Source: Euglena gracilis
Lineage: Eukaryota
Assembly: GCA_039621445.1 (NCBI GenBank)
Contig: CP154954.1
Location: 28,762,417-28,798,850, forward strand
DNA: 36,434 bases
Direction of reading: 5' to 3'
How positions within the stretch are numbered: the stretch's first letter is position 1; each line of letters begins with the position of its first letter. The position numbers and the translations under genes were made by a program. Below, piece after piece: positions 426 through 36,434 of this stretch. The notes beneath the pieces are model-generated. The model was given only the letters and a program-made list of their open reading frames with translations, was not told where the DNA came from and ran no database searches.

Positions 426-1683
426 AAGCCAAGTTGCATTCCCCCCCCCTGCTGAGTGGGTACCCCACTGCAGGAGGGGATTCTTTTGGAGAGTAGAGCC
501 AGAGTTGATTTGCTTTGCATTTAAAAGAATAAAACTCCTTCCTATGGGGGGAGATGGGCACAGCTTACGTCGGGGAAAGATTGGTGCCAATGCACCATTT
601 GAGCAGTTGCATTTGTCGCCCTTTTGCGCAACTGCACACACTGCGCCCAACGGTTTTTGCAAAACCCAAAGCGGATGGTGTTGATGAGGCGGCGATTGGA
701 AGGTTCCTAAACACGCATTCCAGGCGTGCGTGCCCCGCATGCTGTGCGGACACCTGCTCCGGGGCACCCTGAACCATCAAAGCCTTTGCATTTCTTTTTC
801 CGGTCCCAGGGCACCAGACCACCTCTTGATTGCCTTGTACGGGTTTGGTGTTGTATCCCAAGGTGTTGACGGATTTCTTGGGTGACCGGAAACTTGGCCA
901 CCGGCACCCATGCTGAATGGCTTCGCTTTTTGGCTTGTCATGTTTGAAAGTTCATTGCAATGCACTTGGGAAGTTGTCATCAAAAGCTTGTGCCACCTAG
1001 CTTGCATGGGGAGAAATGTTCTTTAACGAAGTGATCTTTCGACCTGGCCCGTGAAAAGGTTCCTCGCCGGGCCTCGCAGCGCCCTGCTCGCAGAATTGCG
1101 GTGCAGCGAATGCAGCACTTTATTTTGGAATCCGGAAACGTTGCGAAGGGTCATCTCGTCTCAACCACTGTGCCGTTTCTGGGTTGCAACCTGTAGACAG
1201 GGGTCCCCAGTCTTTTAATCACTTTAGGATGGCAAGGGTTGCATTTCATCTTTCTGCCATCCAAACAAATGAATATTTTTGCAAATTTACAGCGTTTCTG
1301 TATCTCCAAATGAACATTTTTGGATGGTCATTATTTGGAGTAACAGGGAAAGGGTTTCGTTAAGTAATGAATTCTTGAGCAATGTTTTGGGCCGGCTGAT
1401 TGGGAGCATGGCAATGCCCAATAGGAGCAGTTTGTGCCTGCAAATCCGAAACAGCGAGTGCATGGTATGTGCTGCGAGCAGTGAAACTCGTGAAGTACAA
1501 TTGTGTGCCAGAACAATTGCATTGCTGGAATATTCGGGCAGATGGCCACAAAGATGACACGAAGACGGGACACATGGAACGCAGGTCCGCATGCATATTC
1601 GAAATGAAGGAATCCCTGCAGTGTTGACGAGATGGCCCTCTGCCCGTTTTGCTTGTGTCGCTTTGTCCCTCTGCCGCTGCCGG

Positions 1684-3301
1684 CAGGCATTATTTTTTTT
1701 TAAGGCGAGATTTCTCAAAATATTTTAAGGCGTTTTTTAAGGTTTTTTAAGGTTTTTTAAGGCATTTTGAGGAATTTTAAAAAGTTTTAAGGTTTTTTAA
1801 GGCATTTTTTTACTCAGGTAAAATCTCAGACCCCGAAGATGGCCCGATGGCTTCAGACTCCTGTGGCTTCGGAACGCCCAAGGAAGAAGCCTTGGGTGAA
1901 GCATGGGATCAGGGCGGTCCATGAGGGACAGTTATTGCCATTTTAGGCATTTTAGGAATTTTAGGCCATTCTAGGAATTTTAGGAATTTTAGGCCATTTT
2001 AGCTCTGGGTTCCTGCACATGGGTCCCAAAATGGGCCAAAAAAACATCCGGTGCCGAAGGAAAAATTATTTCGGGTCCAAAACTGCCCTGGAGGGGCAGT
2101 CCTTAAGGGGCAGTTAACTATTTTAGAACTTTTTCCTCAAAAAATGGCCATTAAACTCCCTCAAACCCCCATTTTTCACACCTTCCAAAAAATCAACGTT
2201 TTCTCAAAATTTTGAATTTGAGAGTTTTTTTGAAGCAAACAAAATGCCATTGAAAATCCAACAAATTTGACAGAGGAAAAGTGTCAGTAAAATTTGATTG
2301 TGCCAAAATTTGGTCCACCTTTTTTGACCTTCGTTAGTTTCCCCCCCCTAAAACTACCAAATTTAACCCTGAAATCTTTGAGTTTTTTTGTGTCAAAATC
2401 AACATTTCTCAAAATTTTAATTTTGAGAGATTTTGGAAGCAAAAAAATGCCACTGAACATCCAAAAAAATTCCAAGGGAAAAATGTCAGTAAAATTTGAC
2501 TGTTCCAAAATTTGGTCCCATTTTTTTTGACCTGCATTTTTTGACCCCCCTCCTAAAAACTAGCAATTTTCATCCCTAAAATTTTGGTGATTTTTTTTGG
2601 GAAAATGTAATTTTCCATCAAAAAATCAACCATGCATTTTGGGTTCATTTTTCAATGTATTTTTTAAAAATTTTCCCATACCAAAATCCCCTTTTCCTTA
2701 ATTTTTGGTTGGGAAAAAAAGTGGGAAAAACTCGCGGAATCACTGCTCAATTGGAGAATGCACTGTTTCGCTGCTTGAAATTCTGTGGCAAGTGTGGGAA
2801 ACTGCTGTAGTAAGTTGTCCCAAATCGGGATTTTTTTGTTGTTCATGCAACTTTTGCTGCAATTGCACTTTTGAGCAATTTGGGTTGACTCCTCTAAGAA
2901 TGTCTCAAGTAATTCAAATCAAGACAGATGTGGTTGAAAGTTTTGCTTATTCTGGCCGTGTGTCACAGCTTTTGGTGAACCGAGGCCAACCGAACTATGC
3001 CAGAAACCTTGGCAAACAATCCGGTTTTCATATTGTTTGTTCACAACCGCTTCTGCATTGACTGGCTTTATGCGGGGTTTCAGGCATGCCATTATTTGTT
3101 TGGTGCAAGAAAAAAATTCCCAGGGAAAATTTTTAAGGTTTTTTAAGGTCATCACGGGAAAGAAAAAATTCCCCGGGGTGATTTTTTTAAGGTTTTTTAA
3201 GGTTTTTTAAGGTTTTTTAAGGCATTTTGGCAAAAAAAATTTAAAGGTTTTTTAAGGTTTTTTAAGGTTTTTTAAGGCGCCTTAAAAAATAATAATGCCT
3301 G
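1684..3301. mobile_element. Non-autonomous hAT-like TIR element, 1618 bp
   Basis: ~24-bp TIR CAGGCATTATTTTTTTTTAAGGCG / CGCCTTAAAAAATAATAATGCCTG (1 mismatch). 8-bp TSD GCTGCCGG/GCTGCCGC. Subterminal (TTTTTTAAGG)n arrays at both ends. No transposase ORF recognised. Confidence 0.88.
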
Positions 3302-3331
3302 GCTGCCGCCACGTTGTCCGATGTGTTGCAG

Positions 3332-6300
3332 GGCCTCAGGCGACTGGAAGTGCCCTTCTCCCCTCTTTCTGTCCTCTTGTGCTGGCCTGGTTCTGTCCCT
3401 TGTGCGGGCTCGAAACTGATGGGGCCCTGCACAGTGCGGCCAGGTGGCCGTGGGGGGTGGAATCATGGAAAGTGGTCCCTATCCAACCAACTCAAAAAAA
3501 ATCAAACTTTTTTTTTGATTTTGAACGGTCGATGCCCAGACAATCCTTTGACCGTCCTATTTTAAAAAAAACATCAAATTACCTGAAGAGACAACAAAAA
3601 AAACCCTCAAAAATAGAAAAAACTTGAAAATTTCCGCTTAAGAATAATCCATCCTGCCCAACTAGGGTTAATACACAGGGGGAACCCGAATAAACGGGTC
3701 CCGCCGATGCATCAACCCAAGTTGAGGAGCTCTTTGGGTTCTAACACAGCGGCGTTGAGCACCGAGAATCGCGACCCGAACCTTTTAAATGACCTGTTCC
3801 ATTTCAAGGCACATCATCATGAGGCGCACCATTTCAGTTTGAAGTGAAGTATCACGCCGTCGTGGGACACGATCATTTATTGTTGTTCCATTTCAGGTTC
3901 ATTGCCTTGGGGCATGAGAGGTGCCGAGAGCATTCCAGCGATACCGAAAGCATGTTTTCCCCTGGAGTTGGCCTTTTTCACCGAGGTTTTGCAACTTCAA
4001 TTTTGCTGTTGGGGGAAAAAAATTGCCAGTGATTTTTTGAAGGCTTTGAAGGTTTTAAAAAAAATTCTAAGGCATTTTGTCAAAATTTTATGGTTTTTGA
4101 GGGGGTTCAAAAGGTTTTTCTTAAAGATTTTTAAAAGCCTCGAAAATAATCCCCATTGGGCAGCTCTTTGGATTCACTGGCATCCTTGAGGGGCCGAACT
4201 ATTAAACAAATATGCACACACAATGCAACTGCAATCTTACACGCTTCTAGACCCCTCCTCGTTACATGCCCTCTTGGTCCCCCTAAGGTTGGCCCTTGGC
4301 CCCCTGGCCTTACCTTCAATCATGGACAGGCCAAGCGCCCGGAGGGGGGTACCCAACTTCGTCATTGGTTCTTGGCATTTGGCTCCCGATGAGCATTTTG
4401 CCGTTGTGTCTTCTGAAGGGCCCATCGGACCTTGACTGGTGTGCCAAACCCTGGCCTCCTTTCTGCGATTGCAGGCCCAGCGGCCGAGGCGCATTTGCTT
4501 TCTGCGCTGTACGATATCAACAAAAGGTACCACGAACTCACACACACGATGTTCACAGTCGACACAGTCTGTCCCGGGCGCAGGATCCTGCTTGCTTTCA
4601 GCATCTCCCAACTGTGGTTTACGGATTGAAACAATGCCGAAGCTGAAAGATGAAGATGATTTGACACCTCGATTGGGGTTCGTGAACAAACGTTAACTGA
4701 TGGTTCATCTGTCCAGAATGGTGCCGTCCCAAGTTTTGATAACAGCTTGATGCGGATACCCAAAACAATAACTGTCGCTCCGCCGGAAATGTCTCGTCCA
4801 TGCAACGTTTGGAAACCCATCCAGAGGCATTTGGATCCGGCAGGGGGTGTGGGGTTTGCCATGGGTGCACCGCGGGGACTTGGGTCCGCGTTCCACAGGT
4901 TTGAGGGGCGGGTGGCTGGGAGGGGGTTGCTGCCGCCCACTCCGGCCGCCCCTTCCCCCTTCAGGCACCCACCGGGGCACCCCGCGCCTGGTGGGGCTGC
5001 CGCGACGCCGGGCACAGGGTTTCCCACTGCCCCGGCCCCGGCGGAGGAGGGGTCCTCGCCCCTCCGTCTCCCCGCCCACCGCTCGCCCCCGCATCCCATG
5101 CAGGGTTCGATGTAAGACCCCCATCAGATAATAAGACCCCCGGCAACCCCCGGGTATCATTTTTCGCCTGAAGTCCCGGCCCGAGGGGGGGTACCATTTG
5201 GGGGGTATTTTTTCCCCAAATTTTCGAATTTTTTCGAAGATTCATAAAGGCTCAAAATAACACCCAAAGCCACCCTTTTGGGGGCAATTTGCAGTTTTCA
5301 CAATATCGTCCTTTTTGGAGGCCAGATGGTCACAAAAATATTTTTGTTTGTTATTTATTGCCCTAATTCTGTTTTTCAACCACATTTTTTCGGGCGAAAA
5401 TCACGGTCAGCGGCCCAACCAGGCTTCTTAGTCGGGGGGGGGGGTGCTAGGGGCAGGCACCCCATGGCACCCGATCCGACCCCCCCCCGGGGGGGGTAGG
5501 GTTTTGGGGGGTGCCTGCCCCTAGCAGGCACCCCCCTCCGACCCCGGCACCGAAGGCGCCGGGGGCCGGGAAAAGGCCATTCTCAATGACAATTTTCTGC
5601 CCCCCCGGACCCCTATCCCCCCAGGGGGAGGTGTGCCTGCAAGGGGCAGACACCCTATAGCACCCACCCACCCCCTCCCCCCTCGGTTGGTAAGCACAAG
5701 CATGGGCCCAAAACTCAGGCGTGTATTATTTTTTTTTGGTTCAAGGGCAATTGTCACCCCCCTCTGTGCCCTCTGTGTCACCCTGGGAATTTGTCACCCC
5801 GCTCCGTGCTGCCCAAATTGTCGCGCAACAATTACCCGGGGGGGGGGGTGGGTATGTCAAACCCTGGTCCCATGCCTGGCGTGAGGCACTGCACCCCCTG
5901 GCGCTGGAGGCCCCCTGGTCGCCTTCTGACCCGGCACTGCTCTTCCGCTGGTTCAATGGCTGCTCAGCGGCGGCCATCCCGACTTGTGGGCCCCCCCGAG
6001 ACTCGGCGCGGGGTTTGGCGGGGCGTGCTTGGCCCCCAGGTCTTGCCTGCAACTGCGGAGAAGGGCGGGCAAGCACCCCGCTCCCCCTAGCGCCAAACCC
6101 CGGCCCAGTTTCGGGGCTTCCATCCCCCTTCCCATCTATTCTGTTCCCTTCCCTTCCGTCTCCTTCTCACGTTGTCTCTCTCTGGTCCGTCCCAGACCTT
6201 TGCTTAAGGATTTGCACAGTGGTCACCCCCCTCTCCCCGGGAGGGAGAGCTGGTCCAAAGTCGGCCAGTCCATTTTGCAGCACCCCTGGGGAGGGGGGGG

Positions 6301-7030: not shown

Positions 7031-7970
7031 GCATTGGGGGGTTGGCTCAGTTGTCCATTTTCCTGCACAGTATTGAAGCCCAGATAAAAAGAGAAATTGA
7101 TTTGATTTATCTGGGTGAGCTTTCTGCCCCATATGGTTCAAAGCGCCCACATTCAGGTTAGTAGGTGTCGGGTGCTGTGGAGGAGGGGGTGGGTATGGTG
7201 GTGTTCAGAGTTTGAAGAGATGTGGGGGATTGGGGGATTTGTGTACAGTTTTTTTTGTGCTTTTTTTTGGGTTTTTTTTTACAGTGAGGGGGAACGTCCA
7301 AGGAGTGTTCACCACCCGAGACACAGGAAAGGAAATTTGGGGAAATTTGGTCCCCAACATGCAGAAGGGAGTTGTGGTTTAGGGGAAGGATCCGGGGCTT
7401 CCCTACCCCAATGAGGCCGAAGATCAATTCAGCATTTGGACCAGGCTTATACTATGTTTGACACATTTTCCAAAAGCTTGAGTGCCAAACGCCAGAGGGG
7501 GCATTCAAGCTTTCGGAAAATGTGTCACAACCTCCTGCTTGCATGCAAACTTTTACCCTGAAGTTGTCTGCCATTCCTGCACCCCCCCCCCCAATGGAAC
7601 AGGAGTGCACAACAAGAGTACCGCCCCCATCCCTCGAAGCAGATGTGTGGGCAGCAACCTGCCCTCCTGGGGAGGGGCCTTGGGACATGATCTAAAGTGC
7701 GGCCGGCAGACCAAATCCATACATTGCAAACGTTGGCCAAAAAGCCTGACCTGTCTTTGGCCCCTGCTCTCGGGCAGGACACGCCCTGAAGGGGGCAGGG
7801 GCGTTGAATGCTCCATCCCCCGGTGGAACCACCCCAATCCCTGCAGCGCCCCACTGCGGCTGCCAAGGCTGCCAGGGTTTCGCCTCCCCGGGCAATGGTG
7901 TGCACCGCTCCGCTGCAGCGCTCTGGGCTTCCTGGGGCCTCTCGACGGGGCGGGCCCGTCCTGTACATAC

Positions 7971-8063
7971 CAGGCTTCTCTTTAAGTCAGAAGACCCCCC
8001 CCGGGGGAGGGGAGGTGGGGGGTCCGGGCCGGACCCCCCCCGGGGGTCTTAAAAAGAAGCCTG
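7971..8063. mobile_element. Very short hAT-like MITE (93 bp)
   Basis: TIR CAGGCTTCTCTTTAAG / CTTAAAAAGAAGCCTG; perfect 8-bp TSD GTACATAC. Confidence 0.92.
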
Positions 8064-9881
8064 GTACATACCACCCATGGCCCCCCTCCCTTCCTGCCAC
8101 CGCAGTTGCTCTTCTGTGCTCCCTCATCCCATTCACCGCCGGACCGCATTTTTCTGGCCACCCCGTTCACCGCGGACCGCATCTCTGGCCACACGTATGG
8201 TTTTTTGACTCCGCCCTGTCGCGTCCCAGAGACGCCTTTGCGGCCACACAGGAAGTTGTGCGCTTCGCAATACGTTTGAAAACCGGGAGCAGTTTTCTAA
8301 GAAAGGTGGCAACACAAAATCACAATGGAGACACGTCAGGGATTTCGGAGCATGCCCCAGAAGGCTCCTGAAATTCCTGAACAGAAGAAGTTGGGGTTGC
8401 ACATATTTGGGTGTATCCACTGGGGCGAGTCAATTTCAAAGAGCTGCCCACCCCCCAACGGAGCGAGCGTCCACATCAAGAGCCTTGCTGTTTGGTTTCA
8501 CAGGTTTCGCCGGGCCTCTGCAGAGGCTCCACCGCCGTTTGCTAATTGTTGTCGATGGTCCGAAAATTTGGAGCCTTTCTTCATGTTCATTGTGTGTGTT
8601 CATTGTTCGGTTCATGTTCATGCATTCCGGCTGTTTAAAGGAGGATATTTAGGGGATCCGAAAGAGTTGCTTAATTAGAATTCAAAACATGGCGTGGCAC
8701 ACCCAAGGTAAAAAGAAAGCAACCCCCCCCCCCGGAGTCCAGGAGTCCAATTTTGCAGGGAAATCACAACATGTGCAAAGAGAAGGCAGAGACCCCACAA
8801 CGAATGAAGAGACCCATTGCAAAATTCTATGAAGGGAGAAACACTTCGGCACAAACAAGGGCAACAGAGGTCGGATTTCCCCATTTCCGCCGAGCCAAAA
8901 ATTGTTCCCACCTTCTGGAAAGGTACCTCTCCTATCCTCCATTATTTTCACTTTTCTCATTTCCTTTGGTTCCATTGTTTTTGGTCGGATGATTTTTCTC
9001 CTCCATTGAAACGTACTCTGTTTTTCTATCCATCGAAGTGAAACGCGGTGAGTGATCTTTGGGGGGGCAACGGTTCAAATTTTGAGACCAGGACAAATTT
9101 TAAGAAGCCCCCCCCCCCCAATGGCCGTGCTGGCCCTCTACTGCCATTTCTTTTGTGAAACTGGTGCCCATTCTGTTGCTTGGTTCTCTGGGAGGGGAGC
9201 TCCCAGCGCAGTTTACAGATGTGAACTATTTCAGAATAGCAAGTTTTCTTCAACGTCGAATGGAAGCACATGAATGGAAAGCACATTTCTTATGATCATT
9301 AAGTGGCGGCGTACAACAACAACCTTGCCCCCCCCCCAGGCCCGAGCAGTTGAATTGGGGTCGTATGGTGGGACCCGGGTTCCATTTTCCAGATTTTTCG
9401 GCCTGGTTTGCGAAAAAAAAAATCCTTTTTGAACACACAGAACACCGAAGCCAAGAAAGAAAAGCGATTTCCCCCGTTCGATTTTGGAGGGAACAAAACA
9501 GTGGGTGTTTTCTCAGGGAAACGCTCAAAGGTGCCATTGTGCAGCTTTTCCTGTGACTTTCCGCCCTTTGTGGCAGACACTGTTGGGCTGGCTGGGGGGC
9601 ACCACCGCCAGGCTGGTCACTGACGCCCGGGGAAACGGTGCTGTAAGAGGGGGGGGGGCAGAGTCCAGCCCCAAACCCCACCCTTTCACCAGTTGCTAAA
9701 TGAAATGATGTGCACGGTTTCCCATCAACTTGAGTTTGCCCCGGGTCAGGGAACAGAGTCCACTCGGGGGACAGAAACCATGTCACTGCTGGCGGGAGCA
9801 CCCCAACCCACCTTGGGCTGGGTGACAGGGCCCCTCCCTTCCCCCGACTCCTTCGGGCGACTCCACGGGCGGGTCCGCCCA

Positions 9882-9895
9882 GCCGCTGTCCACAG
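9882..9895 (+). promoter_or_regulatory. Candidate spliced-leader trans-splice acceptor (or 5' UTR intron acceptor) of the oxidoreductase gene
   Basis: gccgctgtccacag, ending 43 nt upstream of the ATG, with a C-rich UTR in between. Euglenids add a spliced leader at such AG sites. This is inference only. Confidence 0.35.
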
Positions 9896-9938
9896 AGCAC
9901 CCCCGACCCATTCCCGCCGCCCTCCCCCTCCCCCTGCC

Positions 9939-10019: not shown

Positions 10020-13000
10020 GTCTGCCCCCCCCCCCCACCGCCCGCCCCAGCCCGCCTATGCGCCTGTGCGGTGTGGTGGCGGAATCTGCACGCATGGCAT
10101 CCTGTCCTGTTGCATTTGTCCCTTTGTCTGGGGGGGGGTTCTTCATTCGGCCCTTCGGTATCCTTAGCTGGTATCTCCTGCAGAGATGGGGTTCAGCCAG
10201 CACCCTTTTGGCAGCCAGCTCAAACTTTCCTTTCTTCCACTCGGCCTGCCCTCCCCACTACGATGATTTCAGATGCCCTGGCCATGAATGAATCTCCCCA
10301 GGCGTTGTTCCTGGTTTTTTTTGCCCACAAACACTTTCAATTTCGATTCTGAGCACACATTTCGAATATAGAAGCGCAACAATTTGTATCTTCTGGCATC
10401 CGGTTCGATTCATGGGGGTGCCGGAGGGTCAGCCAGCAGCTTGTTTTCAGAGCCAAAATTTCCCGCCTTTGAGCTGGGTGTTTGAAGCGCGAGGAGCGGT
10501 ACAGCAGGAACCATCCAGGTGGGTGGGGTTGGGGGCTATTGAGGGCAAGCCCAGGGACTGACACGTAATCTGAATGAACAGGCAGTGCATTATGTAGGCA
10601 TGTCCCTTGCGCTTCGGTGCAATGTATTTCCTCACCAAGCCCACACTCTGGCCGTGCAGAGAGGGGCCCCCGACACACCGTAACACATCAGAGGGATTCC
10701 CATAAGCTCAGGGGGCTTCCGATAACCATTGAGCTTAAGTGCAATCATTTGACATTGCGCTTAAGTGCAAGATAAAACTATTGCGCTTAAGCACAACTTC
10801 CTTTCAAATAGAAGTTGTATTTCAATGTGTTCGTGCTGTGTGAGAACGTGGGGGATTGAGGAGAATGATGGGAATACAGATGTATCAGCATGCCTTCCCT
10901 TCTCCGCCGTTGTTAATGGACCCTTTCGATTTCTCAATTCCATTCGCTCATCCCCAAAGTTGTGTGCTTCAAATACTGGGTGAGAAAAGGGGGGTGACGA
11001 GCTTCTTTAAAACACGTTTTCGATGCCTAAAATGGCTTCCTCGGCTGTGATTCCAAGGGTTCAACTGGTACCTGTTCTTCCCCAAAAAGAAAATTTCCGA
11101 CTTTCAAAAGTTGGCCAAAAGAAGGGCCGCTCAGGCATGCTTAACTGCGAAGCAAGTGGGAGGAACCTCTGGCACTGGCAGTTGGGCTCACAACGCCTAG
11201 GACAAGAGACGTCTGGATATGAAGAAGTTGGTGGTTGTTTTCACACACCAGGGGTTGCTTCCTGTCCCAGGCAAGGTTTCCCTTCACCTTTGCTCTGTCC
11301 GCTCTGGTAATGAGATGCTTCCAGGACTCTCCACCCACAGTGATAGAAAGAGGAATTAAAAATTGGCAACTGTTGCGCCGAAGCGCAATGGGCAGGCTTA
11401 TTAACAGCTTGAAAATTATCTTACAACGGAGGGAGAGAACGGCTTTGGTAGAGGATGAACACCAGAGGGGATAGAACACAAAAATGTAGAGCAGGGGGAC
11501 GAAAGCCTACCCTCGGTCACGGTTGTCTTAAATGTGGTCAACATTGCGCTTCGGCGCAACACCCACGCTGCTTTTACAGTTTTAAAATTGTATTTCTATT
11601 GCGCTTTGACGCAACGTAATTCTTAAAATTCCATTCTACATAAGCGATATGATAATTATCTTATAATGATAATTAATAAGGTTAATTTTCAAGCAGTTAC
11701 ATTGCGCTTTGGCGCAACACCCCGCTAACATAAAATTGTAAAAATTGTGTTTCTCTTGCGCTTGGGCGCAATGTAACTCTTAAATTTCCATTCTTCATAA
11801 GCCTATAAGCCTGCCCATTGCGCTGTGACGCAATGGAAACAAATGTTGACACATACGTTACATCATTGCGCAAGTACGGCAATGGTCACCCACATGTTGA
11901 ATTACAAAAAAGGTAAAAAGTTTACGCTCAAGCACAATGTGTTTTATTTTTTGTGATGAAAAAAAATCGTTGCGCCAAGGTGCAACTGCGCAATAGAGTC
12001 CCCTCGTTTCATCACCCGGCGCTTTGTATTCATGCACACTGGGCCCGGGAGCGCTGTGCCTTCAGACCATAGAGTTCCAAGTCGTTGGTTTCGTCCCCAG
12101 GCCCTTGGAGTGCAGGGAGACAGTAATGCGGGCTGTCTCGAGTCTCAGGCCCCGGTGTTCGAAAACAGAAAAATTCTTTGGCATTGCGCGTTGGCGCAAA
12201 TTTACAGACATTTTCAAAGCTTAGTGCAAGTTAGGCCGCCTAAGTGGAGCCGTGGGCAGGTGGTTTCCAACCTGAAAAGAAGTGGGTGGTGCGGGTTTGG
12301 GGGTTTTTTTCCCCCCCCCCCCCCCCCCCCCCCCCCGGAGGACACTGAGTGAACCCGTGTGGCACTGCCCCCCTGCACAGGAACGTGTCTGGGGCTGGCC
12401 CAGCGTTGCCCGCCCCTCCGCAGATCCGATCGCCCCCAGAGGGGCAGCCCCGGCCCGCCGACCTCTTCGTCCAGGACGGCATCCCAGTCCCCGCCGTGGA
12501 CCCGGACGGCGTGCTCATCCGCGTGCACGCCACCGCCGTCAACCGCGCCGACACAGTCAGAGGCCCCCTCAGGTCGCAGTTCATTTGGAATTTGGAATGG
12601 AGGGATGGGGGGCCCGGGCGGCTCATATTCACCGCACCGACGATGAGCGACCGTGAGCGATGATGAGCGACCAGGGCTGACCATGACCTCAAAGGTGGGA
12701 GATGCCCGGGATATTTTAAACCCAGAACACCCCCAGAGGGTTCTCGGCCAACCCCCCCCCCCCCGCCCCTGGGGGATTGGGTTGAGCCAAAAAAAATTCC
12801 GGCTCAACCCATGGAGCCGGAAATTTTTGAAAATGGTCCAAAAATGGTCGGAGAATGAAGCATTGAGGGGTCTGTTCTCTGGCCACCTGAAAAATATTGG
12901 CCAAAATTTGTAAATCAAAATGATGAAAACTGGAGTTTTGAATTTTTTTTTGTCAGATGGGCCTGTTTTGTGACCCCCTCCCTGGGGGGAGGGGGTCACA

Positions 13001-22000: not shown

Positions 22001-25000
22001 TTGGTTTTCGTTTGATGATTTTGCTTACTGCTATTTGGGAGTTGCCATCCCAATTCTGCCCATAGCAAGCACTCCCCCCTCCTGGGGAGGCCCCCCCAGG
22101 GGGGTGGGTGGGTGGGGGGGACCCCCCCGGTCTTAAAAAAAAAACCCCTGATGGGGGTCCCATCCATCCATCCACACCGGTGTCTTTGGCGGTGCCCCAG
22201 CACTGGTCTGCCCTCCCCCCCCAACGCCGGCAGCCGGCCCGACAGCCGCACCGGTCCCCACGCCCCGGCCAGGCCAGCCCATTCCCCCGACCGCCAGCCC
22301 CCCCCTACGCGCCTTCAGCCAAACATGCCCCCGCGGAAATGTCGGTCGGTTGGGGCCCAAAGGCAAAAAAAAATTCTACCCCCCCCCCTGTGTGCACTGT
22401 GGCTGTTTGTTTGGTGCCTTTTATCCCTTCTTCTGGCCTGGCGCTGTTTTTCGCCTCTTGCCACTCCCCCCCCCCCCGGGAAATTGACACCTCCCAGTTT
22501 GGCAAATACCGGGGACCCGGAGAATTTTCTGGAACCCACCGGGTTCTCGTGGTTGGTGGCATACCTTTTTCCTTGGCCAACTGCCTCGGGGGAGGTCCCC
22601 AACCGTTTCCCGCCCCGCCGCTGGAGGGTGCCTTGCACCGGATCTTCGCCGCGGACGTGCAGGACGTGGTGGGGGCCCACGGGGTGGACGTCATCCTGGA
22701 CCCGGTGTTCGGGAACTACATGCAGGAGAACGCGGAGGTGCTGGCGGTGGACGGGACCATCGTCATCATCGCCATGATGGGCGGTGTGCCCTCCCAGCCC
22801 ACCGCAGATTCGTCCAAAAAAGGCCGCCTGAAAGGTATTGGCAGGACTTTTGCCTGCCAAATTAGTCCACACAGCTTTTATACCCCCCTTCTGCAAGAGC
22901 CGCAACAGCAGGGTCGCTCTTGCAGGGCAGCAACATTCAGCTCTGTATCAGAACATGTTCAGGTCTGCAGAACCCCAGTTTCTTTTAAACTCCCGTTCTG
23001 TCCTCGGCCAACTTTTAACACCATTTTCTTTCTTCGCTTGGATGACATCACGATAGTCATTTTCATCCTACTGCATAACATTTGGCTGATTATTTTCCTC
23101 TGGTGCTTTCCCTGTCGTCCAGATTGAATGTGTGTGTGCAGCTAATGGCAATTGTGAAAATGGGGCGGCCCTGTTTAGCCAAAGTAGCTCTGTCATTGTG
23201 GGCTTGAGATTGGGAACAGAGAACCCTGCATTCCAAACCGTGGGCGGAGAATCATTGGGATTTGTTGAACGTGCCCCCCCCCCCCCCCCGGGGTTCATGC
23301 GGGGTTTGGGGTGGGCGGTCCCCGCGGACCGCTGTGCCTCCCCTCGGCAGGGTCCACCATTGACCCGCCGGCCAGCATGCCCACCCTCTTCCGCAAGCGG
23401 GCCACACTGAAGTTCTCAACGCTGCGGAACACCAGTGTGTCCCCCGGCGGATGGACCCTCTCCCGCAGCATCGTGCCGTGCCAGGGTGTCAGTATATTCA
23501 CAAAGCTGGGACAAAGATAAGAACTTCGGAACTTTTTTTTCTGATAGTCAGCATATCGCCAATGTCCGCCAGCCACCTCAGACCCCCCTCCCAAACAGGG
23601 TGGTCCGTAAGGGACGGGAATTTTTTTTTTTAGTTAAGGACCGCCCCCCACCACCTCTTCCCGTATTTCCGGGAGCACCAATTTTTGGACCCGAAAATTT
23701 TTTTCCATCGCCTTCGGCGCCAGGTGTTTTTTGCCCCATTTCGGGACTCATATGGGAGGTCCCCCCCAAAAACCCCTCAAAAACCCCATTTTTTCACACC
23801 TTCCAAAATTCAACATTTTCTCAAAATTTTGACTTTGAGAGGTTTTTGAAGCAAAAAAAAATGTCATTGAAAATCCAAAAAATTTCACAAAGAAAAAAAA
23901 TCTCAGTAAAATTTGGCTGAGCCATAATTTGGTCCACTTTTTTTGACCTTCGTTTTTTTTTTTCACCCCCCTCCTAAAAACTACGAATTTTTAACCCTGG
24001 AATTTTTGAGATTTTTTTGGGAAAAAATGCGGTTTTCCATCAAAAAATCATGTATTTGGGTTCATTTTTCAAAATAATTTTTAAAAATTTCCCCAGCCAA
24101 AGTCCCCGTTTTCCCAAATTGGTGAAAATCTGTGGTGGGTCCTTATTTTTCGGTTGAAGTGCATTGGGACATATATGTTTTTTTTTTTTAGTTAGGGACC
24201 GTCCTGCTCCCAAATAGTTCACACAGGACAGGCTTCCACACCATGCATGCTCATGTGGGTGGGTCCCGTCAGGGGGATTGCACCTCGGGTCAAGTTCAAA
24301 GGCTGGCCAAAAATTTCATTGAAGGGTGTGCCACTGTTTTTTGTGCCACCCCCAGGGATCTGAACAAATTATTTTTGCACGTATCAGTTTCATGACCAAT
24401 CTTCAATCGGCTCACCCGGGGTTCTGCAAGGATGTAAAAGTCATATTGTCCAGAAAAAAAGCTTTTTTTTCGGGCGTGATAAACTGCGGGAATTTGCAAA
24501 TTCCCAGAAATCGCTCCTCCATCACCCAGAGTCACAGGGATTGGAAAGGTGGGAACACCAAGGACTTCCACCTGAATGAGCTCCCGGCTTGGAAAGGAGG
24601 GAGGACCATTGGGCCATCCGGTGCCATCGCGGGAAGAAGGAAGATTGGCATCCGGGTGGGTGGATTGCGGTGATCAGCGTCGCTGAGAACGAATGTTGGC
24701 AACGTGCTCCCTTGTAAGATAATGATACCTGACACCTTCCCTATTGGAAGGTGGTCTCCCGAAAAGAATTGGCCTCGGGTGCTCGCCAATTTGGGCCTAC
24801 CCGAAGAACAAAGCTCTTTCGGGGTACAACTCCCTGCAAGGCCAGGTCGGCGACAGGCACCTACGGCCGACCAGGACCGACCACGGCCGACCAGGGCCGA
24901 CCAGGGCCGACCAGGGCCGACTATGGTTTTCAGGACCCCCATAGGTGGGGGTTCCGACCAGGGCCGACCAGGGCCGACCAGGGCCGACTAGGGCCGACCA

Positions 25001-25809
25001 GGGCCGACTTGCATGTGGTTGGCCGACCGAAGGGGAATGGATGAAAGAATTCGGCAGCTTTGCCTCTGGAACAAGCACCTCTGATGATGTTGGGCGATGC
25101 AGGGCGATGCTGGGTGATTCTGGATTTTTGGAGACCAGCGGTTGGGTTCTGATGCGGCGATGCAGGGCGATGCTGGGTGATGCTGGCAGTTTTTTTGTAT
25201 ATTTTGAAGAACTAAACCCATCTTTGGATAATTTTCTCACAAATCTCCAGTTTTACACCCATTTTGGCTATTATGGATCAGTTTTTGCTAATTTGGGGGC
25301 TATTTATCACTGATTGGGCAAATATTGGGCTAATTTGGGTCAATCTGAGCATTTTTTATGGCATTTTGGCCATTTTGCGCCCTCTTGGTAATTTTTGGGT
25401 CATTTTTCACAATCTTTTGTGGATTTTGTTGGCATTTTTGGGTAATTTTTGGTTATTTCAAGCCATTTTAGGTCATTTTGGTTGCTTTTGGGGAGCCAAT
25501 GGAGGCCTTATGGGGCACTTCCTTTTGATCTTGGCGAGACAATTCAGAAAATCATTGCATCCCCTTCACATTTTTTCTGTGACGGATACCCCCACCTATG
25601 GCCGACTATTTGCCGACCAGGGCCGACCAGGGCCGACCAGGGCCGACCAGGGCCGACCAGGGCCGACCAGAGCACCAAAATGGGAAGTGACCATAGGTGC
25701 CTGGTCGGCGAGCACAGGCCCAGAGGCCAATTTCTCAGGCAAGACAGGAGTTCGCCTGACCCTCCTATCAAATTAATTTCCAATCAAAAAAAAACCCTGC
25801 ATATATAAT

Positions 25810-25884
<75 letters not shown>

Positions 25885-27895
25885 CTGATATATTCACTCC
25901 CTCCCAAAAAGACTTGGGTCTTATTTTTGGGTCCATGGCTGGAAACCTCCAGGGGGGTGTTTTATTTGGGGGGTCTTATTTTTGGTTTTTTCTTGACCGA
26001 CCCAAGCCCGAAAAAACATCATTTTTCAGGTTCAGCAGTAAAAATTTTCCTTCGGCTCTTCGTGCCATGTGTAAATCGGTGTAAGTTGACATTTGGCATG
26101 TTTTTTTTGAACTTCAAAAATCTGAAATTTTTTGAAATTTCATTATTTTTGTCTGTGAAATTGGGGATTTTGGTAATTTTTCAGGGAAAATTTTCACCGT
26201 CTTCGGCGCTTTGCGCCGTCAGGGGGGTCTTATTTTTGGATTTTTGCTCGTTGGGCCCAGAGGGGAGGGGGGGTGTTATTTTTGGGGGGTTCTTATTTTT
26301 TGGAGGGGGGCTAAAAATGTATTTTGTATAGTTTATTCTTAATTGTTACATTAGAATCAAAAGTTTAAACAGAGGGGGAGATCGTGGGTGGGCGAGGTTT
26401 TTGGGGTTGTCGTGGTGTTTTTGGGCCCAGGGGGCCGTGCCCCACCCCTGCCGGCCCCAGGCAAGGCGTACAAGGCGGCGCTGGTGCGGGACTTCTGGGC
26501 CTTCTCGGAGCCGCTGTTCCGCACGGGCCAACTCCACCTGGGGGCCCCCCTGTGCCCCCCCCCCCCGCCTGGCCCCCACCCCCCCCCCCCCCCCCTCCCA
26601 ACCCTCATCTGGGGTTGGCAGACCTCGGGGATTTTTGTAAGTCTGGGGGGTGGATCGTGAGCCTGTTCACAATTTACAGGGCTTTGTATATTTTGGGGGT
26701 CCAAGTAATGCCCTGATAATCGTGAACAGAAACCGTTTCTACAAAGAAACCCACATCTGGATCCGGGATTCTGTCCGGGAAACCCAGAAAACAAGAGATG
26801 GGCTTACGTCCAAGCTATTGGGGGATGCTTTGGGTTTGGGGGGGCGCCCGCAGTCCCCCCCCCCCAAAGGCCCTCACAATGCTTGGACCAAAGGCAATTT
26901 TCAGTTTAGAGCCCAAGGGTGGTTTCCGTTCAGTTCACCATACCATTCCATTGTGTTCCATTCTGTTTTAATTCTGTGGCCATCTGTTGAAAGCCCTTCG
27001 AACCAGTTGCAACAGGGCAACTGAATTGCGAAATCTGACCAACAGATAGTTCAAATTTCAGATCACTCGATCGGACAGAAACAAGAGTGCTATGCAGCGT
27101 GGCTGAATTCTGTGGCGGTCTGTCGAAAGCCTTCGGGAAGACTTTTGTGCAACAGTTTCCTGAGTTTGTATTTAATCAAAATTCTCTTCACAATTTCAAG
27201 CCCTAATAATCGTGAACAGCCTGTTCACGATTATCAGGGCGTTATTTGGGGGGGTCCAAACAACGCCCTGCAATTCACGTTCATGTCCACGAAATTCAGG
27301 GCAGGCGCCGGGCCTCTGTTCCCAGTGACAAAGAGGGAGGATGAGACAACTTGGAGAAATCCTCATTTCACAATTGGTCGAATGGTATTCAAGCCAGGCA
27401 CTCATTAATGTCTAACAGTTTTCAAGACGGGCGCGACGCTATAAAACGGTTTTCAGAGTGGCGCCGTTTTCTTGGTGAAAAGAAAAACAAAAACGCCAAA
27501 AAAGCCACCGTACGGGTTTTGAATCGTCGAACGTTGAACACAGGCGTGCGGTGTTTCGACTTAGCCGTTTGTGGGCTATTTTTTCGTGGGTGGGTGGGTG
27601 AGCCGGACCCCCTCCCCCTGGGGGATACCCCAAGGGCCTCGTGGGTCCCAACCGGAAGTGCGCCGAATTCTTTGGCCCCGGACCCCGGGGGGTACCCCTG
27701 GGTGGGTGGGGGGCACCCCCCGGTCTGAAAGAAAGCTCCCCGGACGGGCGCCGGCGAGAGAGGGGCCCCCCGCCCCGGCCGGTGGTGCACGCGGTGCTGC
27801 CGTGGACGGAGGCGGGGGCGGCCCACGAGCTGATGGAGGCGAACCGGACGGAGGGGAAGGTGGTGCTGCTGGTGGAGGCCCCTGAGGCGGCGTGA
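9939..27895 (+). CDS. Spliced gene for NAD(P)H:quinone oxidoreductase, PIG3/zeta-crystallin-like (MDR superfamily, non-zinc). Exons 9939-10019, 12424-12554, 15337-15389, 15698-15879, 18280-18331, 20253-20368, 21885-~21921, (possible micro-exon ~22234-22253), ~22612/22640-22783, 23351-23434, 26461-26535, 27777-27895
   Basis: Joined exons read MKAVQ-IRSPPEG...[40 protein letters not shown]...FRPGDRVMALLSGGGYAQYC...AAAIPE-VFLTAYQCLF...LQPG-QSVLIHAGASSVGIAAIQL...GVDVILDPVFG...FRKRATLKFSTLR...AHELMEANRTEGKVVL. These are the hallmark motifs of PIG3-type quinone oxidoreductases in the expected order. Intron phases are compatible at every resolved junction. Confidence 0.95.
10607..12199. repeat. Cluster of ~13 dispersed 16-bp palindromes TTGCGC-N4-GYGCAA in intron 1
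   Basis: Copies start at 10607, 10729, 10755, 10781, 11373, 11544, 11599, 11702, 11756, 11818, 11866, 11922, 11970 and 12184 (some degenerate). Confidence 0.85.
12424..12554 (+). CDS. Quinone oxidoreductase exon 2 (IRSPPEG...[11 protein letters not shown])
   Basis: Acceptor ccctccgcag|ATC, the [14 protein letters not shown] motif, and a 3' end at a nonconventional C|A junction. Confidence 0.92.
13028..13063. repeat. (CAA)/(CAG)n trinucleotide repeat, intronic
   Basis: caacaacaacagcaacagcagcagcagcagcagcag. Confidence 0.9.
14797..15022. mobile_element. TA-flanked MITE with C/G-tract TIRs (Tc1/mariner-like by TSD)
   Basis: TAACCCCCCCCCCCCAATAGAAGC...GCTTCTATTAGGGGGGGGGGGTTA; internal AATAGAAGCGCACCCCCC repeats. 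Confidence 0.8.
15337..15389 (+). CDS. Quinone oxidoreductase exon 3 ([18 protein letters not shown])
   Basis: Signature [17 protein letters not shown]; donor G|GTGTGC, phase 1. Confidence 0.95.
15698..15879 (+). CDS. Quinone oxidoreductase exon 4 (LEAAGIV...AAAIPE)
   Basis: Acceptor tccacag|GG; GDRVMALLSGGGYAQY motif; donor GAA|GTGTGA, phase 0. Confidence 0.95.
15920..16150. repeat. Imperfect (TG)n microsatellite
   Basis: Seen directly; it produces the spurious VC/HT ORFs. Confidence 0.95.
16436..16565. repeat. Interrupted poly-T tract
   Basis: Seen directly. Confidence 0.9.
17039..17356. mobile_element. TA-flanked MITE related to 14797-15022
   Basis: TAAC(n)AATAAGTGCGC...GTGCACTTATTTG(n)CAGTTA; internal TAAGTGCGCAC repeats. 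Confidence 0.75.
18280..18331 (+). CDS. Quinone oxidoreductase exon 5 (VFLTAYQCLFQNAKLQPG)
   Basis: Acceptor ctcgcag|GTG; continues IPE-VFLTA; donor G|GTACGC, phase 1. Confidence 0.92.
18376..18565. mobile_element. TA-flanked MITE
   Basis: TAACCCCCCAAAT...ATTTGGGGGGTTTA; repeated GTTATTTGGG motif. Confidence 0.65.
18568..18804. mobile_element. TA-flanked MITE adjacent to the previous one
   Basis: TIR TACCCGCCCCTGGGAAACTGTCA / TAACAGTTTCCCGGGGGGGGGGTA; internal (AAC/ACC)TGTCAGG and CCGGCCAACC repeats. Confidence 0.8.
20253..20368 (+). CDS. Quinone oxidoreductase exon 6 (QSVLIHAGASSVGIAAIQL...SKVE), Rossmann motif
   Basis: Acceptor ccccacag|GG; nucleotide-binding VLIHAGASxVG; donor GAG|GTGTCC, phase 0. 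Confidence 0.93.
20377..20751. mobile_element. Probable degenerate CAG...CTG MITE starting 8 nt inside the intron after exon 6
   Basis: Inverted GCCACTTT(T)CCA / TGGAAAGTGGC near the ends, and CAGTCAGTCACTTT vs AAAGTGACTGACTG inverted subterminal repeats. The TSD is not convincing. Confidence 0.5.
21885..21921 (+). CDS. Quinone oxidoreductase exon 7 (VCKKYGATTALS...), 3' boundary uncertain
   Basis: Acceptor tcgttgcag|GTT in phase 0 supplies the CxxxGA segment expected after KVE. No clean in-phase GT donor follows directly. Confidence 0.8.
22640..22783 (+). CDS. Quinone oxidoreductase exon (IFAADVQDVVGAHGVDVILDPVFGNY...AMMGG), 5' boundary uncertain (22612-22642)
   Basis: GVDVILDPV and DGTIVIIAMMGG motifs with GC-rich third codon positions; donor G|GTGTGC. 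There is no YAG acceptor immediately upstream. Confidence 0.88.
23351..23434 (+). CDS. Quinone oxidoreductase exon (GSTIDPP...FRKRATLKFSTLRNT)
   Basis: Acceptor ctcggcag|GG; KRxxxxxSTLR motif; donor A|GTGTGT, phase 1. Confidence 0.92.
23596..24206. mobile_element. hAT-like MITE (611 bp) in an oxidoreductase intron
   Basis: TIR CAGGGTGGTCCGTAA vs CAGGACGGTCCCTAA; perfect TSD CTCCCAAA; interior similar to 2160-2700. Confidence 0.88.
24765..25735. repeat. Element with three (GGCCGACCAG)n decamer arrays bracketed by inverted repeats; probable non-autonomous transposon
   Basis: Arrays at ~24865-24921, ~24954-25008 and ~25612-25670. Inverted pairs AATTGGCCTC..GTGCTCGCC / GGCGAGCAC..GAGGCCAATT and CAGGCACCTA / TAGGTGCCTG. 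Confidence 0.75.
25801..25882. repeat. Compound (CA)n/(TA)n microsatellite
   Basis: Seen directly. Confidence 0.95.
26461..26535 (+). CDS. Quinone oxidoreductase exon (SKAYKAALVRDFWAFSEPLFRTGQL)
   Basis: Acceptor ggccccag|GC in phase 1; YKAxLV follows STLR as in homologues. Confidence 0.9.
26536..27776 (+). other. Nonconventional intron, 1241 nt, with neither GT nor AG ends
   Basis: C|ACCTGGGGGCCCCCCT...AGAGGGGCCCCCCGCCCC|G. Both junctions are Y|R, and a 9-bp stem GGGGGCCCC/GGGGCCCCC lies in the +5/-7 register. Removal gives in-frame GQL-R-PVVHAVLPW. Confidence 0.85.
27777..27895 (+). CDS. Quinone oxidoreductase last exon (RPVVHAVLPW...AHELMEANRTEGKVVLLVEAPEAA*)
   Basis: C-terminal MDR motif AHxxMExNxxxGKVVL followed by TGA. 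Confidence 0.93.
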
Positions 27896-31564: not shown

Positions 31565-32600
31565 GTATGCCTCAGCATACCCACCTGTATGGAATATGAA
31601 CAATTTTTAATGAGCTGACTTGCTGCATTTAGAAATGTGTATATTTCAATCTGATTCATTGCCGTTCCTCGGGTGACGGCAGCACCCGGGGCCATGCAAC
31701 ACGCGGAGCCGCTCTCCAGGTGGGTGCCAAGGGGCCGTGTCTCGCCCGCTTGGATTGAGCCGTGGGTGGCCCTGAGGGTCGGCATACCCTTGGGGTCTAT
31801 GACGCGCCCACCCGCGGAGCATGAGCGCCCCGTCACCAGGCGGTCTGCCCCCACCAGCCGGGCGTCGGGGGCATCGACAAGGAAGGCCAGGCTGGATCCG
31901 AAACCGCCTGGCTCCTTTACCGCTGTGTGCGGAAAAGAGAGAGAGACGCGGGAAACCGCGGCCACCCCACAACGGGTGGAACAAAAGTCCCGGCCTTCCT
32001 TCCGGGCAACTAGCGCTTGCGAGCCCTTCGAGGCCAGGCGCATGGGACTGAAGCGCTTCCCCACACAGCCCAAGACGGCTAGGGGCTTGGAGTCCAGGTT
32101 GAGCCGACGCCGCAACCGCCCACGGCAAAAAGAATATGGGCTCCCGCCAGCTGACGCGGTTACAAACATCAGCTAGGCCACCCCACGCAGCAACCAAGGT
32201 GGTGCCTCTCGGCCTGCAAGCACTTGAGCGCAAAGTCCCGCCCGCACAGTCTCCAGTGCAAGTCGGCACAGAGGAAAGAGCCACGTGCGGGTGAAGCCCT
32301 TTACCCTCCTGGTGAGTCGCGGGTCGGGCTCCCCATACCTTGCTTGGGGTCGAAGCAAGTGGCTCTCTGCGGGAATTAATTGGCAGCTTTTGTCCCAAAA
32401 AAAGATGACTTTAGATAGATCGCCAAAACTCAAATGTGGAACTGGCACTCTGGAAATGAGTTGCAGAATGGCACGGCACATCTGATGATTCATTGAAAAA
32501 ATATTTCAGACAAACCGAAAAAAGGGCCCCAAACTACACCAAAATGGTGCAACACTTGCCTATGTGGACATGGCAATTTTCAGACAAATTTGTTTGCAAC

Positions 32601-32876
32601 CAGGGCAGGCAACTATTTTTTTTTTAGTGTTGGACCCGGGGGGGGAGAGGGGAGGGGGGTGGGTCCGGCCGACCCCCCCCCCCCGGAGGGTCCCCCCAGA
32701 GGGGGGTGGGATATATTTTTCAGTGTCGAAGGCGCGAAATTTTTGAAAAAGGTGCTATTTTTAGCATTTTCGCAATTTTTGGCCTTTTCGGGTAAAAGTG
32801 GGTTGGGTCCCCCGGGACCTCCCCCCGGTGGTGGGTGGGTGGGGGGACCCCCCCCCCCGGTTTTAAGAAAAACCCG
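32601..32876. mobile_element. hAT-like MITE (276 bp)
   Basis: CAGGG...AAAAACCCG ends; perfect TSD TTTGCAAC; G/C-tract interior similar to 35996-36281. Confidence 0.82.
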
Positions 32877-33347
32877 TTTGCAACCTCTCTGTCCCATAAA
32901 GCTCTGATGAGACACCAGATTCGTTGTTCTTTGCAGAGTCACACAGGAAGCATCTTTTAAAATTTTAAGCAATGGAAGGGAGGCGTGAATTTGAATTGTG
33001 CAATTTTTCGCACGTTTGGCATTTTTTTCTGTTTTCTTTTTTTTTTGCATGCCCTTGGAGGAAGGATGTACACGGGATATTTTGTGTAGTTTCAAAGGTT
33101 TTTATAGCTTTTCCCCCTGCCCCATGGACACACGCACTTGTCTGACAGAGTTAGTAAATCTGTTATCAAATTTCAATTCAGGGGAATATCAATAAAAAAA
33201 ATAGTATCAATCGATTCTCGAAATGCTTTTTTGTATTTGGCCATGAGATGGCCACAATTCAGCCGCAGGAATTGTGAAATTTTTGTTGTTCTTTTTATCC
33301 AGGGGCTTAGACGGCCGGGAATTCACTTTTCATTTTTGGTGGTTTTT

Positions 33348-36427: not shown

Positions 36428-36434
36428 TTTGAGG

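What the first reader, a model, noticed from the sequence alone, without database searches (positions are those of the whole stretch)
1676..32884. Target sites are biased to CA at TSD positions 5-6, the same C|A seen at nonconventional 5' junctions
TSDs ATCCC|ATG, GGCCC|AAC, CTCCC|AAA, TTTGC|AAC and (reverse complement of GCTGCCGG) CCGGC|AGC all have C|A at the 5|3 split. GTACATAC and GCCCGAAA do not, so the count is 5 of 7. Both clear nonconventional introns of the oxidoreductase also begin at C|A (12554|12555, 26535|26536). Several of these MITEs sit inside introns or other elements, where splicing should not be selected. That suggests the Y|R junction rule comes from transposase target preference, or that the elements are excised recursively from pre-mRNA. 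Four of the five fit the + (transcribed) strand. The sample is small.
Basis: partly seen in the sequence, partly recalled or inferred. Interest (0 to 1): 0.75.

Follow-up and report, generated by a model that had tools for sequence, protein, structure and literature searches.

The report
Euglena MITE target sites and intron junctions
Small hAT-like transposons in this Euglena DNA insert at non-random 8-base sites, but the claimed "CA" bias at the point where Euglena's unusual introns are cut rests on too few elements to be trusted.

Summary
The window is Euglena gracilis-type nuclear DNA. Its exons match EG_transcript_24767 at about 91%.

All seven quoted 8-mers flank CAGG...CCTG elements, so the 5-of-7 count is correct. 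One of the five needs the reverse complement. One TSD (GCCCGAAA) lies outside the stated range. Two elements without CA were missed. My census gives 4 of 9 on the + strand and 5 of 9 on either strand.

For CA named beforehand, P is 0.002-0.01. Allowing any dinucleotide at any position, P is 0.19.

A stronger, symmetric signal exists. The TSDs fit the hAT target consensus nTnnnnAn in 10 of 18 letters (P 0.006) and GTnnnnAC in 19 of 36 (P 5e-5). Positions 4-5 are G/C in 17 of 18.

The published code N3-CAG...CTG-N5|R (PMC12501133) cuts between TSD positions 5 and 6. The Y|R junction consensus and a MITE origin are already in print.

Junction 12554|12555 fits that code. Junction 26535|26536 cannot be verified.

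RNA excision of intronic MITEs was not shown. The one MITE-precise joint listed also exists in DNA.

Verdict: a real hAT-like target preference, an unproven CA bias, and moderate interest.

The parts
1676..3309 (.). MITE #1 (element 1684-3301, 1618 bp). It is composite and holds a #5-like segment at 2016-2703. TSD GCTGCCGG/GCTGCCGC.
   Evidence: TIR 22 of 24, TSD 7 of 8. The internal similarity to #5 is.
5093..5874 (.). MITE #2 (element 5101-5866). TSD ATCCCATG/GTCCCATG.
5412..5712 (.). MITE #3 (element 5420-5704), nested in #2. TSD GGCCCAAC/GGCCCAAA. The right end has mutated to CATG.
   Evidence: Family relation to #4 and #9 is.
7963..8071 (.). MITE #4 (element 7971-8063, 93 bp). TSD GTACATAC twice. 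This TSD is a perfect GT....AC site.
   Evidence: As RNA the palindromic TSD lengthens the terminal helix by 3 bp.
12555..15336 (+). Nonconventional intron 1 of the oxidoreductase gene: AGT-CAG...CTG-AGGGC|G.
   Evidence: Protein-guided junction search, 0 mismatches. It fits the code of PMC12501133.
23588..24214 (.). MITE #5 (element 23596-24206) inside conventional GT-AG intron 9. TSD CTCCCAAA twice.
24846..25711 (.). TSD GTCGGCGA twice. It holds GCCGACCAGG decamer arrays.
26694..27256 (.). MITE #7 (element 26702-27248), a weak case with CAAG ends and a 29-nt TIR. TSD TGGGGGTC/GGGGGGTC, in G-run flanks. It lies inside nonconventional intron 10.
26538..27778 (+). Nonconventional intron 10. The coordinates given are the homology-preferred placement. 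Its true ends are uncertain by up to 3 nt and it has no CAG/CTG motif.
32593..32884 (.). MITE #8 (element 32601-32876). TSD TTTGCAAC twice. The right end is CCCG.
   Evidence: It is collinear with #9.
35988..36289 (.). MITE #9 (element 35996-36281). TSD GCCCGAAA/GCCAAAAA. Copies of the site without the element exist.
   Evidence: Joint 35992->36287 skips 294 = 286 + 8 and stands in 7 DNA contigs of run X1.

Best explanation
The elements are non-autonomous hAT-like DNA transposons (MITEs) of Euglena gracilis. They have CAG(G)...(C)CTG ends and 8-bp target-site duplications.

Their insertion sites are chosen non-randomly by a hAT-type transposase that has not been identified. The preference is roughly palindromic: G-T at positions 1-2, G/C at positions 4-5, A-C at positions 7-8, with a weak Y at 3 and R at 6.

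Euglena's nonconventional-intron machinery cuts 3 nt before CAG and 5 nt after CTG, and 3 + 5 = 8. It therefore removes a MITE plus exactly one TSD copy, and both junctions fall between TSD positions 5 and 6.

Any target bias at positions 5, 6 and 8 is then inherited by both junctions of MITE-derived introns.

The C5-A6 excess in this window is at most a weak, perhaps family-specific part of that preference. It sits on a + strand-C-rich local context and is not established by 9 elements.

What is shown: the anatomy, the TSDs, the fit to the hAT consensus, and one empty site in DNA.
What is inferred: the transposase, the inheritance of junction letters, and any role of CA.
For: - 8-bp TSDs around CAGG-type TIRs: 4 perfect, 4 with 7 of 8, 1 with 6 of 8. 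The reversed-sequence controls gave 0-2 hits.
- Fit to nTnnnnAn in 10 of 18 letters (P 0.006), to GTnnnnAC in 19 of 36 (P 5e-5), and to the best palindrome in 35 of 72 (P 0.005).
- Positions 4-5 are G/C in 17 of 18, P 0.0006 at the local GC content.
- The Hermes consensus nTnnnnAn and listed GT....AC sites are seen in passages of PMC2803484 and PMC8721813.
- Published code N3-CDG...CH'G-N5-6|R with a purine requirement (PMC12501133, sections 9 and 11).
- Published junction logo: Y at the exon end and the intron end, R at the intron start and the exon start, C at the third base of the downstream exon (PMC3935182 passage).
- N3 + MITE + N5 folds with CAG paired to CTG in 6 of 9 elements.
- Joint 35992->36287 skips 294 = 286 + 8 in DNA contigs.
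Against: - Only 9 elements, two of them weak (#7, #9).
- G1 and C8 of the consensus come partly from recall. They are supported only by a table of 16 Hermes sites.
- Three TSDs share the non-palindromic CCCA, all on the + strand, which a symmetric preference does not predict.
- The flanks are C-rich on the + strand (C 0.33 against G 0.24), so composition contributes.
- No hAT transposase was found. No whole genome is held, and ten long ORFs gave no Pfam family.
- The purine at position 6 has a proven splicing role regardless of origin.
- The Hermes sites in PMC2803484 show CA at positions 5-6 in only 1 of 15.
Confidence: 0.55

Rival explanations
1. The CA at TSD positions 5-6 is a small-sample accident helped by local composition (C-runs followed by A on the + strand). 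There is no position-specific CA preference.
For: - After a look-elsewhere correction, 5 of 9 is reached by 18.8% of random sets and 5 of 7 by 4.5%.
- One of the five hits needs the reverse complement.
- Two missed elements lack CA.
- The flanks are C-rich, with a CA frequency of 0.096 against 0.070 window-wide.
- As Y|R the hand count is 4 of 9 on the + strand, close to what composition would give.
Against: - With CA named in advance, P stays at 0.007-0.010 even with local composition.
- Per-letter matches to NNNNCANN are 10 of 18, P 0.004.
- The published Y|R junction consensus gave an independent prior for these two positions.
Confidence: 0.3
2. The bias reflects selection for, or the action of, RNA-level excision. 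MITEs in transcribed DNA persist only if the nonconventional machinery can remove them, which needs a purine at position 6 on the sense strand. This would include recursive removal from inside introns.
For: [quoted passage not shown]
- 3 of 9 MITEs meet the strict N3/N5|R code on the + strand, and 6 of 9 meet it with N5-6. This was read from the sequences.
- CAG pairs with CTG in 6 of 9 folds.
- Four related MITEs share one orientation on the + strand.
Against: - Only #5, #6 and #7 lie in a demonstrated transcription unit. They sit in introns, where no such selection is expected, and #6 has C at position 6.
- Nonconventional introns are reported to be removed after conventional ones (PMC11282704 passage), so MITEs inside GT-AG intron 9 would leave with the intron.
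- The donor-side last exon base is free, so C5 is not explained.
- The one MITE-precise joint seen in RNA also exists in DNA.
Confidence: 0.12

Closest known systems
hAT-superfamily transposons and their MITEs (Hermes, hobo, Ac)
   Same: - 8-bp TSD.
- Short TIRs beginning CAG.
- Target consensus nTnnnnAn with frequent GT....AC.
- One empty site in DNA.
   Different: - No transposase partner was identified.
- The fifth TIR base is G, as in the recalled YARNG motif, in only 3 of 9.
- There is a strong G/C preference at TSD positions 4-5 and a possible C5-A6. CA at 5-6 is seen in only 1 of 15 listed Hermes sites.
Euglena nonconventional introns (Milanowski et al. 2014, PMC3935182; Nomura et al. 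2025, PMC12501133)
   Same: - CAG at +4..+6 and CTG at -8..-6, with the ends base-paired.
- Flanking direct repeats.
- Y|R junctions. Intron 1 of the gene here fits the code.
- MITE + TSD geometry reproduces the 3-nt and 5-nt spacers exactly.
   Different: - Most MITEs here interrupt no exon, and no RNA removal was shown for them.
- Two of the gene's nonconventional introns examined closely (I7, I10) lack the motif.
- The papers propose a MITE-like origin. In the passages and sections I read they do not name hAT, an 8-bp TSD, or a target-site logo.
Introner elements of Micromonas and Aureococcus (Huff et al. 2016, seen only as cited in PMC11282704 and PMC11170887)
   Same: DNA transposons that become introns, with the TSD supplying part of a splice junction.
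   Different: Introners use the spliceosome and GT/AG co-opted from the element and the TSD. Here the junctions are non-GT/AG and are set by distance from the TIR ends.

Membership tests
hAT superfamily (non-autonomous) | 8-bp target-site duplication | tested here: met
   9 elements: 4 with 8 of 8, 4 with 7 of 8, 1 with 6 of 8. A skip of 286 + 8 stands in DNA contigs.
hAT superfamily (non-autonomous) | Short TIRs with the terminal motif YARNG (motif recalled, not taken from a call) | tested here: inconclusive
   - CAG at both ends in 6 of 9.
- One end mutated in #3 and #8. #7 has CAA.
- The fifth base is G in only 3 of 9 (#2, #5, #8).
hAT superfamily (non-autonomous) | Target consensus nTnnnnAn | tested here: met
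   10 of 18 letters, P 0.006. GTnnnnAC 19 of 36, P 5e-5. The consensus itself comes from PMC2803484 and PMC8721813.
hAT superfamily (non-autonomous) | An autonomous partner encoding a hAT transposase (DDE core plus hAT dimerisation domain) | not testable with these tools
   No genome is held. No element longer than 3.5 kb in the window. Ten long ORFs gave no Pfam family.
Euglena nonconventional intron | Sequence code N3-CDG...CH'G-N5-6|R | tested here: inconclusive
   - + strand, strict N5: #2, #5, #9 (3 of 9).
- With N5-6, also #1, #4, #6 (6 of 9).
- #3, #7 and #8 fail at one end (sequences).
- Intron 1 meets the code. I7 and I10 do not.
Euglena nonconventional intron | Ends brought together by base pairing (CAG with CTG) | tested here: met
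   In the MFE folds of N3 + element + N5, 3 of 3 pairs form in 6 of 9 elements, 2 of 3 in #3, and 0 in #6 and #8.
Euglena nonconventional intron | Actual removal from RNA at the predicted junctions | tested here: inconclusive
   One search listed 15 of 1594 joints. The gene's own splice joints were not among them. The only MITE-precise joint (#9) also stands in DNA.

The most novel reading that the evidence does not exclude
The junction consensus of Euglena nonconventional introns may be a fossil of the target-site preference of a hAT-like transposase. That consensus is a pyrimidine before and a purine after each cut, plus C at the third base of the downstream exon.

On this reading the splicing machine evolved to cut exactly between TSD positions 5 and 6, so that it erases the MITE plus one TSD copy.

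On the helix formed by the TIRs and a partly palindromic TSD, these cuts lie 2 nt apart and leave a 3' overhang. That points to a structure-measuring endonuclease rather than a sequence-reading spliceosome.
Probability: 0.3. Interest if true: 0.7.

Novelty: new member of a known kind. Interest (0 to 1): 0.42.

Why it matters
The origin of Euglena's nonconventional introns, and the enzyme that removes them, are open questions.

Free MITEs with CAG...CTG ends and 8-bp TSDs are physical candidates for the long-proposed MITE-like source. In this window they sit in introns, in other elements and between genes. In my four literature searches and the passages I read, no paper names hAT, an 8-bp TSD or a target logo for euglenids.

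The arithmetic 3 + 5 = 8 explains why splicing restores the uninterrupted sequence.

If target preference sets part of the junction consensus, conserved junction letters need not all be splicing signals. That changes how the code should be dissected.

The specific CA claim, however, is not yet evidence for any of this.

Tried and rejected
- **Whole-genome search.** No genome is held for this window, so no genome-wide TSD logo could be built.
- **Earlier scan notes.** Four look-ups returned nothing.
- **Collection scans for MITE ends.**
  - Metagenome contigs with a 20-nt end: 0 matches.
  - A degenerate 18-nt end: 98 single matches.
  - A 16-nt end in genome contigs: 120 or more single matches in bacterial or archaeal records.
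  - None of the 218 loci shares more with any MITE (blastn, no hit at 1e-6). All are chance matches.
- **Sequencing runs.** No RNA holder is listed by the index.
- **Lay of reads on 16435-36434.** I used 2 raw RNA runs, 1 probable RNA contig set and 1 DNA contig set.
  - The tables were swamped by repeats and poly-C/G reads.
  - Only 15 of 1594 joints and 24 of about 5900 loose ends were printed.
  - The gene's own splice joints, any skip of MITEs #5-#8, and TSD information from paralogous copies could not be read. This says nothing either way about RNA excision.
  - The stretch left out MITEs #1-#4 and introns 1-3.
- **Search for a full-length E. gracilis protein across the E10|E11 junction.** The first query was too short. 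The second found no hit.
- **Possible partner ends.** I looked for partners of a #5-like left end at 1910 and of a family right end at 13011. None was found.
- **Elements longer than 3.5 kb.** One low-complexity hit, equal to the control.
- **Papers.** PMC3009821 (Gangadharan 2010) is not held. Supplements of PMC12501133 and PMC3935182, which hold the junction logos and intron lists, were not seen and may bear on positions 5, 6 and 8.
Full report
**What the window is**

The window has about 50% G+C, with long C and G runs and many short repeats. A zinc-type quinone oxidoreductase gene lies on the + strand in about eleven exons between 12.4 and 27.9 kb. No whole genome is held for the window.

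**The observation**

- Three pairs are perfect: GTACATAC, CTCCCAAA, TTTGCAAC.
- Three differ at one base: GCTGCCGG/GCTGCCGC, ATCCCATG/GTCCCATG, GGCCCAAC/GGCCCAAA.
- One differs at two bases: GCCCGAAA/GCCAAAAA. That element (35996-36281) lies beyond the stated end of the finding. The only other GCCCGAAA, at 26006, flanks nothing.

The scans required CAG/CTG or C-N-G ends, a TIR anchored at the ends and a TSD of at least 6-7 of 8. Reversed-sequence controls gave 0-2 hits.
- 24854-25703, with a perfect GTCGGCGA.
- 26702-27248, a weaker case with CAAG ends and TGGGGGTC/GGGGGGTC.

Three further weak candidates were not counted: 6193-6601, 5550-5928 and 13764-14143. None has CA at positions 5-6.

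The census is therefore nine elements. CA sits at positions 5-6 in four on the + strand, and in a fifth after reverse complementing.

**Is it more than chance?**

- The window's CA frequency is 0.070. CA at 5-6 or TG at 3-4 occurs in 0.141 of all 8-mers.
- With CA fixed in advance, the binomial tails are 0.0009 (5 of 7, either strand), 0.004 (5 of 9) and 0.002 (4 of 9, + strand).
- With the composition of the 50-nt flanks, which are C-rich on the + strand, the tails are 0.010 and 0.007.
- If the dinucleotide and the position may be picked afterwards, random sets of 8-mers from the window reach 5 of 7 in 4.5% of draws and 5 of 9 in 18.8%.
- As the literature's Y|R rule alone, my hand count is 4 of 9 on the + strand. 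I did not test this formally; it is close to what composition would give.

The CA bias is suggestive, not established.

**A stronger, symmetric signal**

A transposase acting on double-stranded DNA should leave a roughly palindromic preference in an unoriented sample. The nine TSDs do show one.
- They match the classical hAT consensus nTnnnnAn in 10 of 18 letters, P 0.006. The consensus was seen in passages of PMC2803484 and PMC8721813.
- They match GTnnnnAC in 19 of 36 letters, P 5e-5 in 20,000 draws.
- The best palindrome is GTTGCAAC, 35 of 72 letters. Among 3000 random sets, P is 0.005 of doing as well with their own best palindrome.
- Positions 4 and 5 are G or C in 17 of 18 letters, P 0.0006 at the local G+C.
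- Y at 3 with R at 6 is weak: 13 of 18, P 0.048.

So the sites are chosen non-randomly and in the hAT manner. CA at 5-6 with its mirror TG at 3-4 (4 + 2 of 18 half-sites) may be part of that. Three of the hits share a non-palindromic CCCA on the + strand, which a symmetric preference does not predict.

**Link to nonconventional introns**

Nomura et al. 2025 (PMC12501133; abstract and sections 9, 11 and 12 read) defined the code 5'-N3-CDG...CH'G-N5-6|R-3' by knock-in mutagenesis.
- The first base of the downstream exon must be a purine.
- The last base of the upstream exon is free.
- They also report that 84.4% of introns have short direct repeats at the splice sites.

Milanowski et al. [quoted passage not shown] They proposed a MITE-like origin. 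The 2024 review PMC11282704 (passages read) repeats the Y|R consensus and mentions TSD-like repeats.

For a CAG...CTG element with an 8-bp TSD, cutting 3 nt before CAG and 5 nt after CTG removes the element plus one TSD copy. Both junctions then fall between TSD positions 5 and 6.

On that frame, the published R (position 6) and C (position 8) coincide with the symmetric preference seen here. The occasional +2,+3/-5,-4 pairing is what a GT....AC site gives. In MITE #4 the TSD GTACATAC lengthens the predicted helix by three pairs.

As RNA, N3 + element + N5 folds with CAG paired to CTG in 6 of 9 elements.

In four literature searches and the passages I read, I found no statement of hAT, an 8-bp TSD or a target logo for euglenids. 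Supplements were not available.

**The two intron junctions**

A protein-guided search gives six conventional GT-AG introns (I2-I5, I8, I9) and four nonconventional ones (I1, I6, I7, I10).
- I1 is 12555-15336. It reads AGT-CAG...CTG-AGGGC|G, so 12554|12555 (C|A) is sound.
- For I10 the best match to P0001 puts the exon end at 26537 or 26538 (Q-L-H|P-V-V-H).
That placement is possible but unproven.
- No placement of I10 has the CAG/CTG motif.
- I7, placed by its CAG, has C|C at the 5' junction.

**RNA evidence**

One lay of reads was allowed. I laid 16435-36434 with two raw RNA runs, one probable RNA contig set and one DNA contig set, at 90% likeness.
- The gene is expressed: exon bins have depth 6-13 and about 60-77 reads cover single exon positions.
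- Near-fixed differences at 20290, 20320, 22274, 22282 and 22659-22679 show that most reads come from an allele or paralogue like P0002.
- Repeats and poly-C/G reads filled the tables. Only 15 of 1594 joints were printed, and none was a splice joint of the gene.
- One printed joint is MITE-precise: 35992->36287, skipping 294 = 286 + 8. It is seen in 4 + 1 RNA reads and 4 contigs of X15, but also in 7 DNA contigs of X1.
- Copies of that site without MITE #9 therefore exist as DNA. This supports insertion with an 8-bp duplication and gives no evidence of RNA excision.

The recursive-excision idea remains untested. It is made less likely by the published order of removal, conventional introns first (PMC11282704 passage). 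MITEs #5 and #6 lie in a GT-AG intron.

**Verdict**

- The elements and their TSDs are real.
- They behave as hAT-like MITEs with a non-random, largely palindromic target preference.
- Their geometry reproduces the published nonconventional-intron code.
- The specific claim of a C|A bias at positions 5|6 is correct as a count, weakened by two missed elements and a strand flip, and not robust statistically.
- That the junction rule derives partly from target preference is plausible for R6 and C8 and unproven for C5.
- The statement about the transcribed strand is unsupported.
- The Y|R rule and the MITE hypothesis are already in print. What may be new is the identification of free 8-bp-TSD elements, the 3 + 5 = 8 arithmetic and the hAT-type target logo.

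Noticed in passing
14799-15020; 17042-17350; 18380-18463: A second MITE family with poly-C/poly-G terminal inverted repeats (ACCCCCCCCCCCCAATA...). It is flanked by TA on both sides in two of three copies, which is Stowaway/Tc1-mariner-like. DNA contigs of run X1 lack 313-318 bp at 17039-17358, so this insertion is absent from some copies.
   Followed up: partly
20290, 20320, 22274, 22282, 22659-22679; 22239-22250: Most RNA reads differ from the window at these exon positions and agree with EG_transcript_24767. The window also has one extra base relative to that transcript's reading near 22240-22250. The window's oxidoreductase copy may be a poorly expressed allele or paralogue, or a pseudogene.
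   Followed up: partly
24866-25028 and 25602-25677 (inside MITE #6): Arrays of the decamer GCCGACCAGG inside a very high-copy element. The DNA word depth in this bin is among the highest of the stretch.
   Followed up: no
5420-5704, 7971-8063, 32601-32876, 35996-36281: Four related MITEs (shared G-run/C-run core, CAGGCTTCT-type ends) all lie in the same orientation on the + strand. In that orientation their TSDs end TAC, AAA, AAC, AAC, which hints at an element-oriented asymmetry of the target site.
   Followed up: partly
22290-22641 (intron 7) and 21919-22249 (intron 6): Two further nonconventional introns of the gene. Intron 7 can slide over a 5-nt direct repeat (ACCG+) and has CAG at the 5' side but no CTG at -8. 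The junction of intron 6 could not be fixed from homology.
   Followed up: partly
15896-16148; 16428-16560; 25810-25885: Long (GT)n-rich, poly-T and (AC)n(AT)n microsatellites inside introns of the gene.
   Followed up: no
16435-36434, run X24: In the size-fractionated RNA library, reads on repeat-rich bins are strongly one-sided. Examples are 25106-25772 (0.41 against 14.5) and 31776-32442 (5.0 against 27.9). These repeat families appear to be transcribed mainly in one orientation genome-wide.
   Followed up: no
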